A stretch of 56,127 bases of DNA, the filler included, from Platydemus manokwari (Eukaryota), in the NCBI GenBank assembly GCA_037951405.1. It is 5 parts of 5 records of this genome, joined end to end, with 100 filler letters (N's around TTAATTAATTAA, not from the genome) between each part and the next. Parts side by side here need not be neighbours in the genome. Positions count along the whole stretch, not along the records: positions 11,601 to 23,027 come from JBBMOY010683319.1; 4 more parts are not named here. The stretch is one strand, 5' to 3'. Both the position numbers and the translations under genes were made by a program. Shown here piece after piece: positions 6,040-19,200 of the stretch (position 1 is its first letter; each line of letters begins with the position of its first letter). A model generated the notes under the pieces. The model saw only the letters and a list, made by a program, of their open reading frames with translations. It was not told the DNA's origin and did not search any database.

Positions 6040-7450
6040 TTCTCTAGATTTCATATAATAAAATGCAACTGAGACCGAGTTTAACTATATAAATAGAGAA
6101 TAAAGAATTGGAATGCTTGTTAGACACTTGTGCCAGAGTAAATGCCATGGATAAGACTATATTGGAGACACTCAAACAAGTAGAAATAGAATATACAGGT
6201 GAAAGTTTACGATGCGCCAACAACAGTAGATTGGAGTTTGTTAGTAAAATATGAATAAAAGCAAGTTAAGAAGTCAGCCCAAGATGATATCAGTCATAAT
6301 AGTTAAGTAAATGAAACCGAAAATTATAGACGGAATAGAGTTTCAAGAAGAATTTCGATCAGAGTTACAAAAAAATTACCAGCACAAAGAAACCGAATTA
6401 AACACCTCCATTCGTGAGATTTATCAGCGAGATTTAGTTAAAGTATTACCGACGTAGATTTTTCCAAGAAAACCAAAGTATGTCTTGCGTTTGAAGGACA
6501 GATCTTGTTTATGGTAAATTTCAAAAGCGAAATGTAATGGTTCCATAACAGACCAATAGAAAATTGTTTGTAGAAAGATAGTAAATACATAGGATTGTAA
6601 CAAATGGGAGCCCCAGGAAATTTAGAAGAAAAGATAGAAAAGCCAATCAAGATATTAAGAGAAAACAAAGAGATGAGCAAGGAAATGAACGAGTCATTTT
6701 CGTACGGATTTCATTTCAAAAAGTTTTTGTAACACCATGAACAAATTTTAGCGAGATCCCGAGTACAGGAAAAATGAAGATTAGGATATTAACAATAATG
6801 ACAGAGAAAAAAAAGAATGGCAGATAAACAACAATGAAATAGAAATGATACAAAAGAGTGATAGATCGAACACGAAGTAGTAAGTTAATGCTCAACGGAG
6901 ATACAATAAAAACTAAAGAAAACAAAATTTGGTTACCAGGAGAAAAAGAAGAAAAATGATAGAACATACACAGAAATTGCTGTGTCACGCAGGGACGGAT
7001 AAAGTTACAAATTATATAAAAAATAGATTTGGTATGAAAGACATGGGAGGAAAAATAAAGAATTATTGAACGACAATTTCAAATGATTTGAAGAAAAGGA
7101 AAGACTAAGTACGAATTGGGCTTCGATATTATCAGAGATAGAATACGCGTTGAATGCGACAGTACAAAAAACTATTAAGGTCGGTCCATTAGAATTCATT
7201 TTCAGAAAAAAATAGCAAATAGTAGAATAGAAAAAGACGAGTTAAAGAAGAACATAGAATATAAACAACAACTAAACGTAAATTCAAAGAAGGCGATCAG
7301 ATACTAACAAAGAAAGAGATGATGACTAAAGATCAGGGAAGATATGAAGGCCCAAATAGAGTAATTAGGATGAATCATGAAAGAAGCTTCCGATTACAAA
7401 ATAGAAAAGGCGCAGTAATAACAAGGAATATTGAAAAAAACAAAACGGTT
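6040..7450 (+). mobile_element. Internally deleted, decayed Ty3/Gypsy pol (protease, integrase zinc finger, integrase core end, GPY/F C-terminus)
   Basis: Protease LECLLDTCARVNAM..SLRCANNSRL (~6105-6235); H..LLCHAG zinc-finger remnant (~6965-7000); NWASILSEIEYALNATVQKTIKVGPLEFIF (~7113-7203); RKFKEGDQIL..GRYEGPNRVI (~7277-7370). Confidence 0.8.
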
Positions 7451-7489
7451 AAAATAAAAATAAGGCACGGATTTCTATCAGAATATACT

Positions 7490-7700
7490 AACTCCGTAGA
7501 ATATGTAAAGAAAAATATTACAAAGAGAAAACCACAAGTAGTTATGGACTATAATGTCACCATGGAAGGCCTTGATAGAGTAGATAAACACCTTTCAAAT
7601 TATCCTGTTGCACTCCAAAGAGAGAAGAAGTATTATAAAAAAATGTCTTTCCATTTATTGGAGCAAACATTGTGATATTATTTTGTTTTGTTCACAAAAC
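7490..7700 (+). mobile_element. piggyBac transposase C-terminal catalytic fragment (PGBD4-like)
   Basis: KPQVVMDYNVTMEGLDRVDKHLSNYPVALQREKKYYKKMSFHLLE matches the piggyBac motif KPxxxxDYNxxMGGVDxxDQxxxxY..KKxYKKIFFHLLD. Confidence 0.85.
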
Positions 7701-13419: not shown

Positions 13420-14130
13420 ATAGAACCAATTATTTCTCAGATTCAAACGTATACAGTCAATCTATCGAAATACGACTTTGAACTAAAATTTAGAAAGGTG
13501 AAGAGTATAGTAACGCAAACGCAATATCTCGAATTGGCGAAACATAGGCTCTCAACGTCAAAGTAAACACTATTTAACCAAAACTAAGGCGACATTCGAG
13601 CATTATTGAAGAACATTCAACCGTAGATCTCCCTTAATTTGTGATTCAGCATTTGTTCAAGGCAAATTACAGGTATATAGTTAAATAACTCTTAAAGCTG
13701 AAGTTGGAAAAAGGCTAGCTGAAACTATAACTTGTGGAAGGAACGTGCGTAAGAAGGGTTAAGGCCTAATAAAGCACAAGATTGCGCCAAGCAGATTAAT
13801 CCAAAGGGCACTTAAACTAAAAGATCAGAATATGTATATGGTATATATGTCTGGAAAGTCAAACGCAAATCCAGATTCGTTATCACGAATACCAGGAAAT
13901 AAGGAGAAATCAGCATTAGAAATAAATGTAATAGAAGCTTTTGAAAATAATGTTAAAAACAACCAAAGAAGATAAAGAATTTAATAAAGACACAGGAAGA
14001 AAATAAGTAGCAGGATTTATGAAGGTATAATAATTTAATACCAGAAGGATATCAGATAACAATGGATGGAACCATAAATATCTTGATGGAGAATATTCAT
14101 TAATAGTAGTAGTACAAGAGATAAACGTGT
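13420..14130 (+). mobile_element. Two successive Gypsy RNase H C-terminal fragments
   Basis: SQIQTYTVNLSKYDFELKFRKG-EEYSNANAISRI (~13435-13536, frameshifted) and RLIQRALKLKDQN..MVYMSGKSNANPDSLSRIP (~13793-13894). Both resemble RWxxxLxxYxFxIxYxxGxxNxxADxLSR. Confidence 0.75.
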
Positions 14131-16240
14131 ACAGATAAAGGATTAAATCCTGACAAGTCACCACAGGATTGGTCCCAACCAATTAATGCAATTGACGAGG
14201 CATGTATGAGACATGATATTGCCCACGCATCCACAGATACTCGTGACAGAATAATTGCTGACTATGTGCTAACATCTGACCTTAAACAAATACCCAGTCA
14301 TTTGCTGAGTCAGAAAATGAAATTAATTAGAAAAATTATGATAGCTGTTTTCAAATTAAAAATTGAAACAGACATTATTCAAGAAATTTTAAAAAGATGA
14401 GAAAGTGGCACAGTAAAGGATCAGAATGGGTTAGTACTAGATTAGCATTTAAAATGATGATTAAAGATTCTAATTTAAATTTTAAAAATATTTTTAAAGA
14501 CTTCATTCCTAATCTTAATAACATTCAATCTAGACATCATGTAAATTTTTATTCTTCGATTCATAGTAGCAGAATGTCCTTAAATGAGATTAGACCTACG
14601 ATCTAAAATAGAATTTATCGATTAATTGTCAGAGGGATGAACAACATATTTCATAAAACAGGGCTTTCTAATTACCCTTGGCTTGTGAAAAATATTAAAA
14701 ACTATGCACAGCAAACAACGTTTTCACCCGGAAATATTGAAAGGCAGATATTACATGTAGCAAAAACATTTGCTAAAAGTGCTATGACTTCTGACGCAGG
14801 AGGTGCGGCTATTTTACTTTTTAGTACCATATTTAGAAATAATAAAAAGATGTGCGATTAATCAAACACATGATTTCCATAGCAGATTTTTATAATTATG
14901 AAAATAAAATCAAGGTAATTAAAGATTACTATGAAAACCTTATGTCTGACAAACCACTTTTACCTGCCACTGTTTCATGGTTAAAAATTTGAATTTCTTG
15001 GATACAAATGACATGTTAGCATACGAATTAAACCAGACCAGTCCAAATGCCCTGATGACAATAGAGGAAATGGTAAACAAAATATCACCAGGTCTTTATA
15101 ATTTTGAATACTACCTTAGCAGGATTAAATGGAATAACCATATTTACCAATCCTTACAAACATTGATAGGTGGAATGAGAGTAAAGAAAACACCTTACAA
15201 CCTACAGTTAGTACACGAAGAAGGATGGAAGATACCACGATATTGTACACCGGACATATAATATGTTCCTAAAGCTTTAAAGAAACCCGTAAAAATACCA
15301 GAGCCCCCAGCTCCAGTACTACAAAGACTACCACGCAATACAGGAGTCAAAATTCCAAAAACACCCGCACAAAGGCATCGGTTTCCCCACATGATCAAGT
15401 TAGGATTGAAAAGGCAATTACAAGATATCGTAAACAATGCCAAAAATTATTCGACTGAAGAAAAAAGGCTAATGTACCAAAATATTAGCACTATACCAAT
15501 CAAACCCAAATTGCAGGACAGCTTAGATTTTGCAAATGATGATTTTAAATATCGAGTGAAATATAATAATGCAATTATACCTGGTAAAATGATGATTGAT
15601 CTTAGAAGATTTGTTTGATAACGCCTACCGGGTTCTGAACAGAGCAGTTGATGAGCACCTGGTGCAAAATTTAAAAACTGTCAATGATTTGATTTCATTG
15701 GATAATGCGGGTATAAATACAATGCTAGAAATACAACCAAGCCATTCAAAAATGCAGGCCCTACTCCAGGCAATCAGATTAGAGAAGTAGGTCACATTCC
15801 GGATTCCGAACCCGGACACTCATTGACACTCTTTTACTGCTTGTGGATCTAATGCCATAAAGACAACTATGAATGATTATTGGTACAACTTCCCGTTAGA
15901 ATATCAATCTCCATTTACGATAGGTCGACATGAACATTATCAACAGATTAAGGGTTATCAGTGGTATAAACCAAAATCAATGAAGTTCAAAATTTTCGAT
16001 CTTCAAGCTATTGGGAAAACAGGCCCTGGCCAATTTAATGGTGTGCAGTCTCAAGCCGAGATTCTCGTTTACAGGCACAGTAATCATACGTTCAGCCCGT
16101 GTGCTGACTCTCCTCTTGGTGTGAAATCGTTTACGGATATATTATATAATGAAAGAAATCTTCACAGCGGGTATGACCGCGATGAAGTATTATCATTAAT
16201 AACTCCGATCAAATTGCTAAAAATTACTCAAGTAATATAA
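14131..16240 (+). pseudogene. Endogenous viral element: parvovirus-like VP1 capsid gene (N-terminal PLA2, long unique region, jelly-roll core), frameshifted and truncated
   Basis: From 14131: TDKGLNPDKSPQDWSQPINAIDEACMRHDIAHASTDTRDRIIADYVL, a viral PLA2 (HDxxY..AD motif with a Polinton/adintovirus-type NPDxxPxxWSxPIN insert). From ~15790: VTFRIPNPDTH*HSF..NDYWYNFPLEYQSPF..YQQIKGYQWYKPKSMKFKIFDLQ..AEILVYRHSNHTF, collinear with the parvovirus VP segment TWxLPxYNNHxY..TPWGYFDFNRF..WQRLINNxWGFRPKxxxFKIFNIQ..VQVFxDxxYxLP. The ORF-track pieces 14206-16240 join through stops and frameshifts. Confidence 0.75.
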
Positions 16241-19200
16241 AAAATGAAAAATAATAGATAAAGATGTTCTTTAGGACCAAGAGGAAAAAAGATAGACAGT
16301 AGGAAATGGTAAAATCCTATATCGATTCATTAGTTAATTACCATATTCACTATTTTATCTCCAGTCTGTATATCAAGTACATTAAAAATCAAATGTGGAA
16401 AAACAAGATGATTTATACATTTATAGTACTTTACAATAATGTCATAAATAAAATATAAAATATAATTATAGACAACTATAATATCAGTAATGTCGAAACA
16501 AGAGTGATGTAAAATACATCAGTTGAAATAATCACCATATGCAAATAAATTTCATTTAATGAAGCCATAATTTAGTAAGATAAAGAAAGAGGAAGAACAT
16601 CAAAGAAAACGTTGAAACTAGATAACAAACACGGAATATCAATAAAAGAATCAAGTAATAAATAAATCTTCCAACGATAAATAGAATGATAACTATTTTT
16701 GACAGATGAATAGTGACAACATAATATATGATAAACCAATTTCTAGCATTATCTTGAAATGTCATTAAATTTCTTTGACAAATAAACGTCATTGATTTGT
16801 TGGAATATAAAATATTTGAACAAAATATTTGGTACTGATTAGCCACATAACTTGGAATTAATAGTATCCCGATAGTTGAAAAGTAGTTTGGATAACAGAA
16901 ATTTTTTCGTATAGAGAAGTAGAAAATATTATTGGTTCGGATCTCATTTCAATGTATAAACTTAACAATTTAAATTATTGCGAAAATTGATACAGGTCTC
17001 TTGTCATCGACGAGTTATTTTAATATAGCATTTTAAAAAGAAATGTGAGTTTAAAGGATAAGTTCAATTTAACATTAAAAATTCCTTTAAAACTACTTGA
17101 ATTATCGAGAATAAATTTAATAGAAACACTTCTAATCTAAAGTAAATATAAAAACCAACTCTTGGGGAAAAAATCGATTAGGAAATTATTTTAAGTAAAC
17201 AATTTCCGATTCCAAAATTTAGTTAAGTAAATAATTCCCAAATGTAGCAATTTACGAATTAATTTGGTAGATTGTTGTTAAGAGCACCAATGAGTAGAGG
17301 AAATAGTATATAAACTGAGGGCAAAACGTTAATTTTAACTATCACAAGAAAAACCATAACAGATTATAATATTATATTTATTAATATTTGTTATAGATTC
17401 ACGAGTTCATAAGAGCAATAAAGATTCAAAATTGTCCACTTTAATACAGTAGATGTAGAGTAAAAGTATTTGTCGTTAATGTATCTGAGTGAAGTAGTAA
17501 TACGACCAGGAGATAATTCTGTGCCGGTATCGCAAATTTGTACCAAGAATTCATTCAATTATTGCATTATTTTTTATATAATAACTATAATTAAAATTTA
17601 TCTCAGATTTAATCAAAATAAGCACTTGACAATAGGTAAATCAATAGGAATTATATAAATATCGATGACTTTACTTGATTGTACTAATGGTGGAGTAGAG
17701 AAATAAACAAGTCTTAAAATAATTAATAATCGCATACTTTAAATGGTAGCTGAATAAATAATAGTAGATTCTTGTAAAATTATTAAATAAATATAGCAGC
17801 CAAATGAGAAAATATTTTAATGAACTTATTAAATAAACAATTTTAAAGGATAAAAAAATTGTTAGATAAAATTTCTATTTTTGACTTCCTACCTTTGAAA
17901 GTATAAGTAATCGTATTTTTCAGATTTAAACGGCCATTAATAGATGCCCTACAAGAAACATGTAAATAGTGACAGCTTAAATTGATGACTCTCCTGTAAG
18001 CATCAAACAAATGGAATGATAAAGCATAATAATTATTATAACTAAAAACTCTTCTAAACATCTTATACTTTGATTCTGATTGAGCACTTATATTACGAAA
18101 GCAGAAGTCAAGTGGTACAATGGTATTTTTTGGTATGTATGTGTTATGTTGTATTGTAAAGCTTTGATTTATTATTCATCCCTTTACTTTACATTAGAGG
18201 GCACATTGTGTATCACATGAAAACTTGTGATGAAGATAAGTGTTGAGAACCCGAACCGAAATCGAAACTATGAAACAAAAATAAAATAGAACCTCTAAAT
18301 AATCAACTGTCAATCAATAACTGAATTATAGTATTCTGATTCTCTATCAATCTAAATCCCCACTAGTCTAACAGATAATCCAATTCAATTCAAACAATTC
18401 CAATCAATGCTCCAATTCGATGCATTTCAATAAACAGACATATTAAATTACATTTTACTGAATTATTACAGTAATACTTGAATTAAACATTTAAATTATT
18501 ATATTCGTGCTTAAGTGGATATAAAAATTTTATGAATGTTAATTTGAATAACTATTTTCGTAACGTCAGCGGTTTAATTAATGTCACGTAAAGATTAACC
18601 AAGCTAATTGTACTAAATACTTTTACTATTTAGTTAAATTAGTGACTTCTGACTTTAAAAATATTTGAACATTTTTGCAACCCAATTTAGTGGCTCGTTT
18701 TTGTTCTTTTGATTGTTATTGTTTTCATACTTATTAAATAAACATTAATAAATTATAATCTGAGTTTCGGATCACTTTATAATACATCATATGATTATCG
18801 CATTTTGTATATTCAGAATTGACATTTCTGACAACAATTCATATACATATTTTTGCGACAACCAGTAATTTCCAATTTAATAATTTTAAAACCCTAACCA
18901 CTTGAATTTTACAACCGCCACAAGAGGTCCACGCTCTTCATAGTGTCTGTTTAAGCAATCCGTAGAACATATTTACAATACTTAAACAAATAAAGTTCAT
19001 TTGAAAACTGTTGACCAATCGGATTTTCAAGCAAAAAATTTAAAATAATTAAAGAAGCAAATTGTTAAATTTAAACCATATGAAACCATAATCTTTGGTA
19101 GACTTCAAATCCATGCCATTGTTAGAAGAAAAGAGCATAATAGTACGTTATTTACTCATTTTATTAATTCAAAGCTCTTATACTATCAAATAAACTTATT

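What the first reader, a model, noticed from the sequence alone, without database searches (positions are those of the whole stretch)
14131..16240. Chimeric viral capsid fossil: Polinton/adintovirus-type PLA2 joined through a ~500-aa unknown region to a parvovirus-like jelly-roll core
Seen: seven short plus-strand ORFs join through stops and frameshifts into what looks like one reading frame of ~700 codons. It starts with LNPDKSPQDWSQPINAIDEACMRHDIAHA..RIIAD and ends with YWYNFPLEY..YKPKSMKFKIFDLQ..EILVYRHSNHTF. Established: parvovirus VP1 carries an N-terminal PLA2 (HDxxY) for endosomal escape, while the NPDxxPxxWSxPIN insert is typical, as I recall, of Polinton/adintovirus PLA2X rather than parvoviral VP1u. 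Inference: this is an endogenised capsid gene of an undescribed invertebrate virus lineage mixing Polinton and parvovirus modules (bidna-like). Its VP1-unique region is unusually long, and its core motif looks closer to Parvovirinae than to insect densoviruses.
Basis: partly seen in the sequence, partly recalled or inferred. Interest (0 to 1): 0.88.

Follow-up and report, generated by a model that had tools for sequence, protein, structure and literature searches.

The report
Planarian-type virus fossil with Polinton lipase
A broken 2.1-kb stretch in an animal genome carries a Polinton-type membrane-breaching enzyme gene at one end and part of a shell-protein gene related to an unclassified planarian virus element at the other; it is likely the remnant of one undescribed small DNA virus, but whether the two parts were ever one protein is not shown.

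Summary
14125-16240 (+) is decayed coding DNA: 8 breaks in ~704 codons against 26 expected. No second copy at 80% identity or more appears in the one run that holds it. The 5' end is a Polinton/adintovirus-type PLA2X, not an ordinary parvovirus VP1u. The 3' end (15827-16141) matches a small unannotated protein family that includes ORF1L of the planarian virus-like element PEVE. An intact family member folds, at low confidence, like parvovirus capsids, and the core motif is nearest Parvovirinae. So the lineage is not wholly undescribed. The single fused ORF is unproven: intact relatives start their capsid at its own Met, PEVE has no PLA2, and the PLA2 frame stops near where its homologues stop. 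The middle ~450 codons have no detectable relative. No NS1, Polinton core gene or terminal repeat lies in the window, so 'bidna-like' has no support. Best reading: a dead fossil of the structural genes of a PEVE-related virus that had taken up a Polinton lipase.

The parts
14125..14400 (+). 5'-truncated phospholipase A2-like gene of the Polinton/adintovirus PLA2X type (insert before the first helix, HD dyad at 14212, trailing helices); Tyr of HDxxY and calcium loop missing
   Evidence: Pfam PF08398 E=0.0025, below cutoff; Atlas 25 of 30 hits in PF08398 clusters; tblastn of the Polinton L008 protein: 41% over 80 aa, E=3e-13
14367..14992 (+). Middle coding region, first part (three open stretches); basic, with one moderately hydrophobic segment near 14.78-14.83 kb; no relative found
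   Evidence: stop-poor; composition; no significant hit
14950..15790 (+). Middle coding region, second part: Pro/Lys-rich stretch (10 Pro in 40 aa) and predicted helices; no relative found
   Evidence: single-sequence model of 14950-15615 has pLDDT 34, mostly helical, no Foldseek match at E<=0.001; Atlas uninformative
15827..16240 (+). N-terminal third of a PEVE-family, parvovirus-like single jelly-roll capsid gene; 3' two thirds absent
   Evidence: representatives search E=3e-7 and 3e-5 to P0005, P0006; family profile vs six frames of the window E=1.2e-13, positions 31-137 of 427; hhalign to Parvovirinae cluster E=1.8e-4, 0 of 60 shuffles as high
13650..14050 (+). Flanking multi-copy host repeat next to the fossil; looks like an LTR-retrotransposon pol remnant (recalled motif, unconfirmed); borders approximate
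   Evidence: summed contig depth 186 at 13652-13895 against about 13-16 over most of the fossil; no Pfam or PDB support

Best explanation
This is a broken stretch of coding DNA with a Polinton-type PLA2X at the 5' end and a PEVE-family, predicted parvovirus-like capsid fragment at the 3' end; it is likely the integrated remnant of the structural-gene cassette of one small DNA virus, likely arranged as separate or overlapping genes rather than one frame. In the live virus the capsid protein would have built a parvovirus-type shell from its own start codon. PLA2X would have ridden in the particle as a minor component that breaches the endosome, as inferred from parvovirus VP1u and proposed for adintoviruses. 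The basic, helical middle region would be a minor virion protein, in the position that PEVE's 626-aa ORF holds. The lipase was likely taken from a co-infecting Polinton-like virus. The piece likely entered the germline once, next to a host repeat, lost both ends and decayed; it is predicted to be non-functional.
Confidence: 0.5

Rival explanations
1. One reading: one VP1-like open frame, PLA2X fused through about 500 residues to the jelly roll, with the major capsid protein made from an internal Met; all 8 breaks are mutations.
For: Same strand, same order as parvovirus VP1 (PLA2 first); unbroken coding signal; the number of frame switches (4) fits the number of stops (4) for neutral decay; the overlaps at 14.36-14.40, 14.85 and 14.95-14.99 kb each hold a run of five or more A, though 16 such runs lie in the stretch.
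Against: Spacing twice the longest of 30 Parvovirinae; relatives' capsids are 428-447 aa proteins with their own start; Polinton PLA2X homologues are mostly small separate genes.
Confidence: 0.28
2. Two unrelated remnants side by side: a Polinton piece (PLA2X plus part of the middle) and a PEVE-like capsid piece, joined in the host genome or by a retrotransposon.
For: PLA2X is so far seen only in Polinton-like or virophage-like contigs here; PEVE lacks it; the window is rich in repeats and gaps.
Against: No non-coding gap, strand change or repeat between the parts; in L008 and L009 PLA2X is followed by integrase, and neither that nor any other of their ORFs hits the middle.
Confidence: 0.18
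3. The capsid resemblance is chance or the region is an ordinary densovirus fossil.
For: No Pfam or PDB sequence hit for the core alone; first word-based search empty.
Against: Database-wide E=3e-7, profile E=1.2e-13; densovirus clusters score at shuffle level, 11.5-15.8 against a shuffle median of 14.9.
Confidence: 0.04

Closest known systems
[quoted passage not shown]
   Same: Capsid-type gene is homologous (ORF1L; 31% over 45 aa by tblastn, family profile E=1.2e-13); in PEVE too a long basic, Pro-rich ORF precedes it on the same strand. Integrated PIVE is reported from Schmidtea mediterranea (PMC3198968, passages).
   Different: PEVE has no PLA2 in either segment, has 243-nt terminal inverted repeats and replicase-type ORFs; none of these is here, and the middle region is not detectably related.
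Polinton/adintovirus PLA2X (Starrett et al. 2021, PMC8502044)
   Same: Insert and trailing helices match; 41% to the L008 protein.
   Different: No double jelly-roll capsid, ATPase or integrase nearby; the neighbour is a single jelly-roll capsid; N-terminal DUF5679 domain and calcium loop are missing.
Parvovirinae VP1 (AAV, B19, tetra- and copiparvovirus-like cluster; genus labels recalled)
   Same: PLA2 upstream of a jelly roll; helix A / strand D motif matches (hhalign E=1.8e-4); family fold hits AAV, B19, PARV4.
   Different: PLA2 is of another subtype; spacing 586 against 184-288 codons; no NS1 or hairpins in the window.
Bidnaviridae / bidnaparvoviruses
   Same: Precedent for a parvovirus-derived virus that took a Polinton gene (PolB) (PMC8502044, PMC9896142, passages).
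   Different: The Polinton module here is the lipase; no PolB or NS1 is seen.

Membership tests
Parvoviridae | Single jelly-roll capsid of parvovirus type | tested here: met
   By family: core in the P0005-P0009 family; P0007 model (pLDDT 30) hits parvovirus capsids first in three searches; direct motif match. Only a third of the gene survives.
Parvoviridae | NS1 with HUH and SF3 helicase domains | tested here: not met
   Profile of 38 NS1-type ORFs finds nothing in six frames of the 56-kb window (best E=0.74). The fossil is a fragment, so this does not speak for the source virus; it is not filed as a member.
Parvoviridae | PLA2 as in-frame N-terminal extension of VP1 | tested here: inconclusive
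   8 breaks; junctions cannot be told from mutations; spacing atypical.
Parvoviridae | Terminal hairpins | tested here: not met
   No inverted repeat over 26 nt, and none hairpin-like at the ends, in 13900-17000; both ends are truncated.
Polinton/adintovirus | PLA2X gene | tested here: met
   the pX-like C-terminal domain was not tested
Polinton/adintovirus | Double jelly-roll capsid, packaging ATPase, rve integrase | tested here: not met
   525 locus ORFs, including these genes of L008 and L009, gave 12 tblastn hits at E<=0.05; none came from these genes.
Bidnaviridae | Protein-primed PolB together with NS1 | tested here: inconclusive
   No NS1; no labelled PolB query was held (the long L008/L009 ORFs got no PolB label), and no window ORF of 100 aa or more hit a polymerase B family.
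PEVE/PIVE-like elements | ORF1L-type capsid protein | tested here: met
PEVE/PIVE-like elements | Replicase/helicase ORFs and long terminal inverted repeats | tested here: not met
   PEVE ORFs other than ORF1L give no significant hit in the window; no such repeats.
Endogenous viral element | Decayed viral coding DNA joined to host DNA | tested here: met
   One 4906-nt contig covers 12768-17673 unchanged, at the depth of its neighbours; animal EFHC2 exons at 34.0-34.6 kb.

The most novel reading that the evidence does not exclude
An undescribed group of small invertebrate DNA viruses, kin to the planarian element PEVE, builds a Parvovirinae-like shell and enters cells with a Polinton-derived PLA2X fused to the capsid through a 500-residue extension: a second, independent Polinton-parvovirus chimera beside the bidnaviruses, this time in the entry module.
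Probability: 0.28. Interest if true: 0.78.

Novelty: new variant of a known kind. Interest (0 to 1): 0.55.

Why it matters
Polinton-to-parvovirus gene flow is known for the polymerase (bidnaviruses). A Polinton-type lipase next to a parvovirus-type capsid would show exchange of the entry module too, and bears on the proposed link between parvovirus origins and adintovirus genes (PMC8502044). The work also gives PEVE, still unclassified in NCBI taxonomy, a predicted parvovirus-type capsid whose motif is nearest vertebrate-type parvoviruses and whose gene is divided over two segments. The fossil itself is a single dead fragment, so it points to a virus group to look for and does not prove one.

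Tried and rejected
No genome held for the window, so no search for diverged copies below 80% identity. No RNA holder listed; not evidence on expression. Word-based searches for longer proteins were empty for the core (57 candidates) and PLA2 (41 candidates); weak evidence. P0004 is a repeat-inflated lectin hit: dropped. L002 is a chance DNA-pattern match: dropped. L006 and L007 matched the DNA pattern but no open frame held the motif: dropped; L005 duplicates L003. Both metagenome scans found no capsid relative (34 and 128 stretches); viral scans found only the two PEVE segments. Middle region: nothing in Pfam, Atlas, BFVD or 2207 locus ORFs. A weak match of 14367-14453 to the capsid family's C-terminal tail (E=0.012 pairwise; 0.83) is treated as chance. 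Frame 15706-15849 as capsid N-terminus: no support. PPV_E1_DBD at 17846-18175 (E=0.079) and weak NS1 hits at 32.9-33.6 kb (E 0.003-0.012 among 525 queries) were not confirmed by profiles. LTR-retrotransposon identity of the flank not confirmed. GC-by-codon-position was too noisy to fix frames. The original PEVE paper is not held. Supplements of the bioRxiv preprint 2024.03.25.586562 were closed; its genome maps could hold a PLA2X-bearing parvovirus. No Atlas result exists for the capsid core. Earlier scan notes: nothing relevant.

Full report
Setting. The window is AT-rich (18-36% GC) animal DNA with assembly gaps, transposon remnants and EFHC2 exons whose best PDB match is entry 8snb (recalled as sea urchin). 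No whole genome is held. One run, X1, holds the stretch and may be its source. The host phylum was not determined; a flatworm is a guess from the viral relatives.

Observation. The shortest reading path through 14125-16237 has 4 frame switches and 4 stops. Shuffles need 26.1 +/- 2.6 breaks (0 of 300 as low), 0 of 198 other stretches of the window are as low, and the minus strand needs 21. The middle alone needs 5 against 17.0. So the whole stretch is decayed plus-strand coding DNA. One contig covers 12768-17673 with no difference; of 14 contigs laid on 14060-16420, one spans it and the 7 others shown are pieces of about 40 nt (6 not shown), so no second copy at 80% identity or more is seen.

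The 5' module. Pfam gives PF08398 below cutoff (E=0.0025) and 25 of 30 Atlas hits are PF08398 clusters. I fetched two PLA2 sets from IMG/VR by motif: 7 insert-type matches, of which 5 hold the motif in an open frame (4 distinct), and 79 standard-type loci. Among 78 distinct domains the window protein scores E=5e-17 to 8e-10 with the four insert-type ones and at best 6e-5 with the 74 others; the part after the HD motif, which played no role in selection, hits only L008 (E=1.3e-4). L008 and L009 encode a double jelly-roll capsid, an A32 ATPase and an rve integrase, and L003 a virophage-type capsid. In a tree of 79 rows the window sequence sits with these four and one standard-type row (94/89), outside the parvovirus clades, on a long branch with a long-branch warning. 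This is the PLA2X of Starrett et al. (PMC8502044, passages read; one supplement searched). This copy lacks the calcium loop and the Tyr of HDxxY.

PEVE as a guide. Its large segment (L001) has 243-nt terminal inverted repeats, a Rep/helicase-like ORF on the other strand, a 626-aa basic Pro-rich ORF, and then the capsid-type gene with a stop just upstream. The small segment (L089) holds the C-terminal half of that capsid and a helicase-type ORF. Neither has HDxxY in any frame or a PLA2X profile hit. PEVE and its integrated relative PIVE are described in PMC3198968 (passages and supplement hits); the original paper is not held.

One gene or several? For several: relatives' capsids are 428-447 aa with their own Met; the window has an in-frame ATG 25 codons before the match; the PLA2 frame ends close to where homologues end, its stop overlapping an ATG; fusion needs 586 codons from HD to the conserved Pro against 184-288 in 30 of 30 Parvovirinae. 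For one: the order is that of VP1, and four stops make four mutational frame switches plausible. None of this decides. I put one virus with separate genes at 0.5, one fused frame at 0.28, two unrelated remnants at 0.18.

Middle and surroundings. The middle has no relative; it is basic, with a Pro-rich stretch and predicted helices, like PEVE's upstream ORF in make-up only. No NS1 (profile of 38), no Polinton core gene and no terminal repeat lies in the window. A multi-copy repeat abuts the 5' end; its LTR-retrotransposon look is recalled, not confirmed.

Mechanism. Shown: sequence families, order, strand, decay. Predicted: the jelly-roll fold. Inferred: one source virus, PLA2X as an entry lipase in the particle (by analogy; PMC8502044, PMC11903649, passages), capture from a Polinton-like virus, single integration, no present function.

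Print. Eight full-text searches and passages of PMC8502044, bioRxiv 2024.03.25.586562 (also as PMC11071296), PMC3198968, PMC5013282, PMC9896142, PMC11903649 and PMC6186406 showed no PLA2X beside a parvovirus-type capsid and no capsid assignment for PEVE ORF1L. Other listed papers were seen as listings only. Figures, the closed preprint supplements, Repbase and subscription journals were not seen and could hold either.

Verdict. A real viral fossil with an unusual pairing of two known modules; new variant of a known kind; interest 0.55.

Noticed in passing
L001:4572-5493 and L089:230-739 (PEVE large and small segments): The predicted capsid gene is divided over the two segments (profile 1-278 and 279-426). 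The metagenomic P0008 stops at the same residue as PEVE ORF1L, while P0006 and P0007 are whole, so the split may be a natural feature of a sublineage.
   Followed up: partly
L001:2530-4410: 626-aa PEVE ORF with Pro/Arg-rich start, Gly-rich hydrophobic segment and weak coiled-coil hits; a candidate minor virion protein.
   Followed up: no
window 13650-14100 (+): Multi-copy repeat with a motif recalled from LTR-retrotransposon RNase H and integrase starts, same strand as the fossil and directly abutting it.
   Followed up: partly
window 14382-14399 and 14835-14852: Two of the frame-switch zones share an 18-nt motif at 89% identity; probably chance in AT-rich DNA.
   Followed up: no
window 34000-34603 (+), 46568-47518 (-), 7265-7675 (+), 50835-51200 (-): EFHC2 (DM10) exons, an ankyrin-repeat ORF, a DDE_Tnp_1_7 transposase remnant and a reverse-transcriptase remnant.
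   Followed up: no
L026, L041, L047, L051, L064, L071, L073, L077, L079, L084, L086: PLA2 motif deep inside long ORFs of up to 2080 aa, unlike parvovirus layout; possibly RNA-virus polyproteins.
   Followed up: no
L003:4368-6296: Insert-type PLA2 at the C-terminus of a 643-aa ORF in a virophage-like contig: this lipase subtype does occur fused to long proteins.
   Followed up: no
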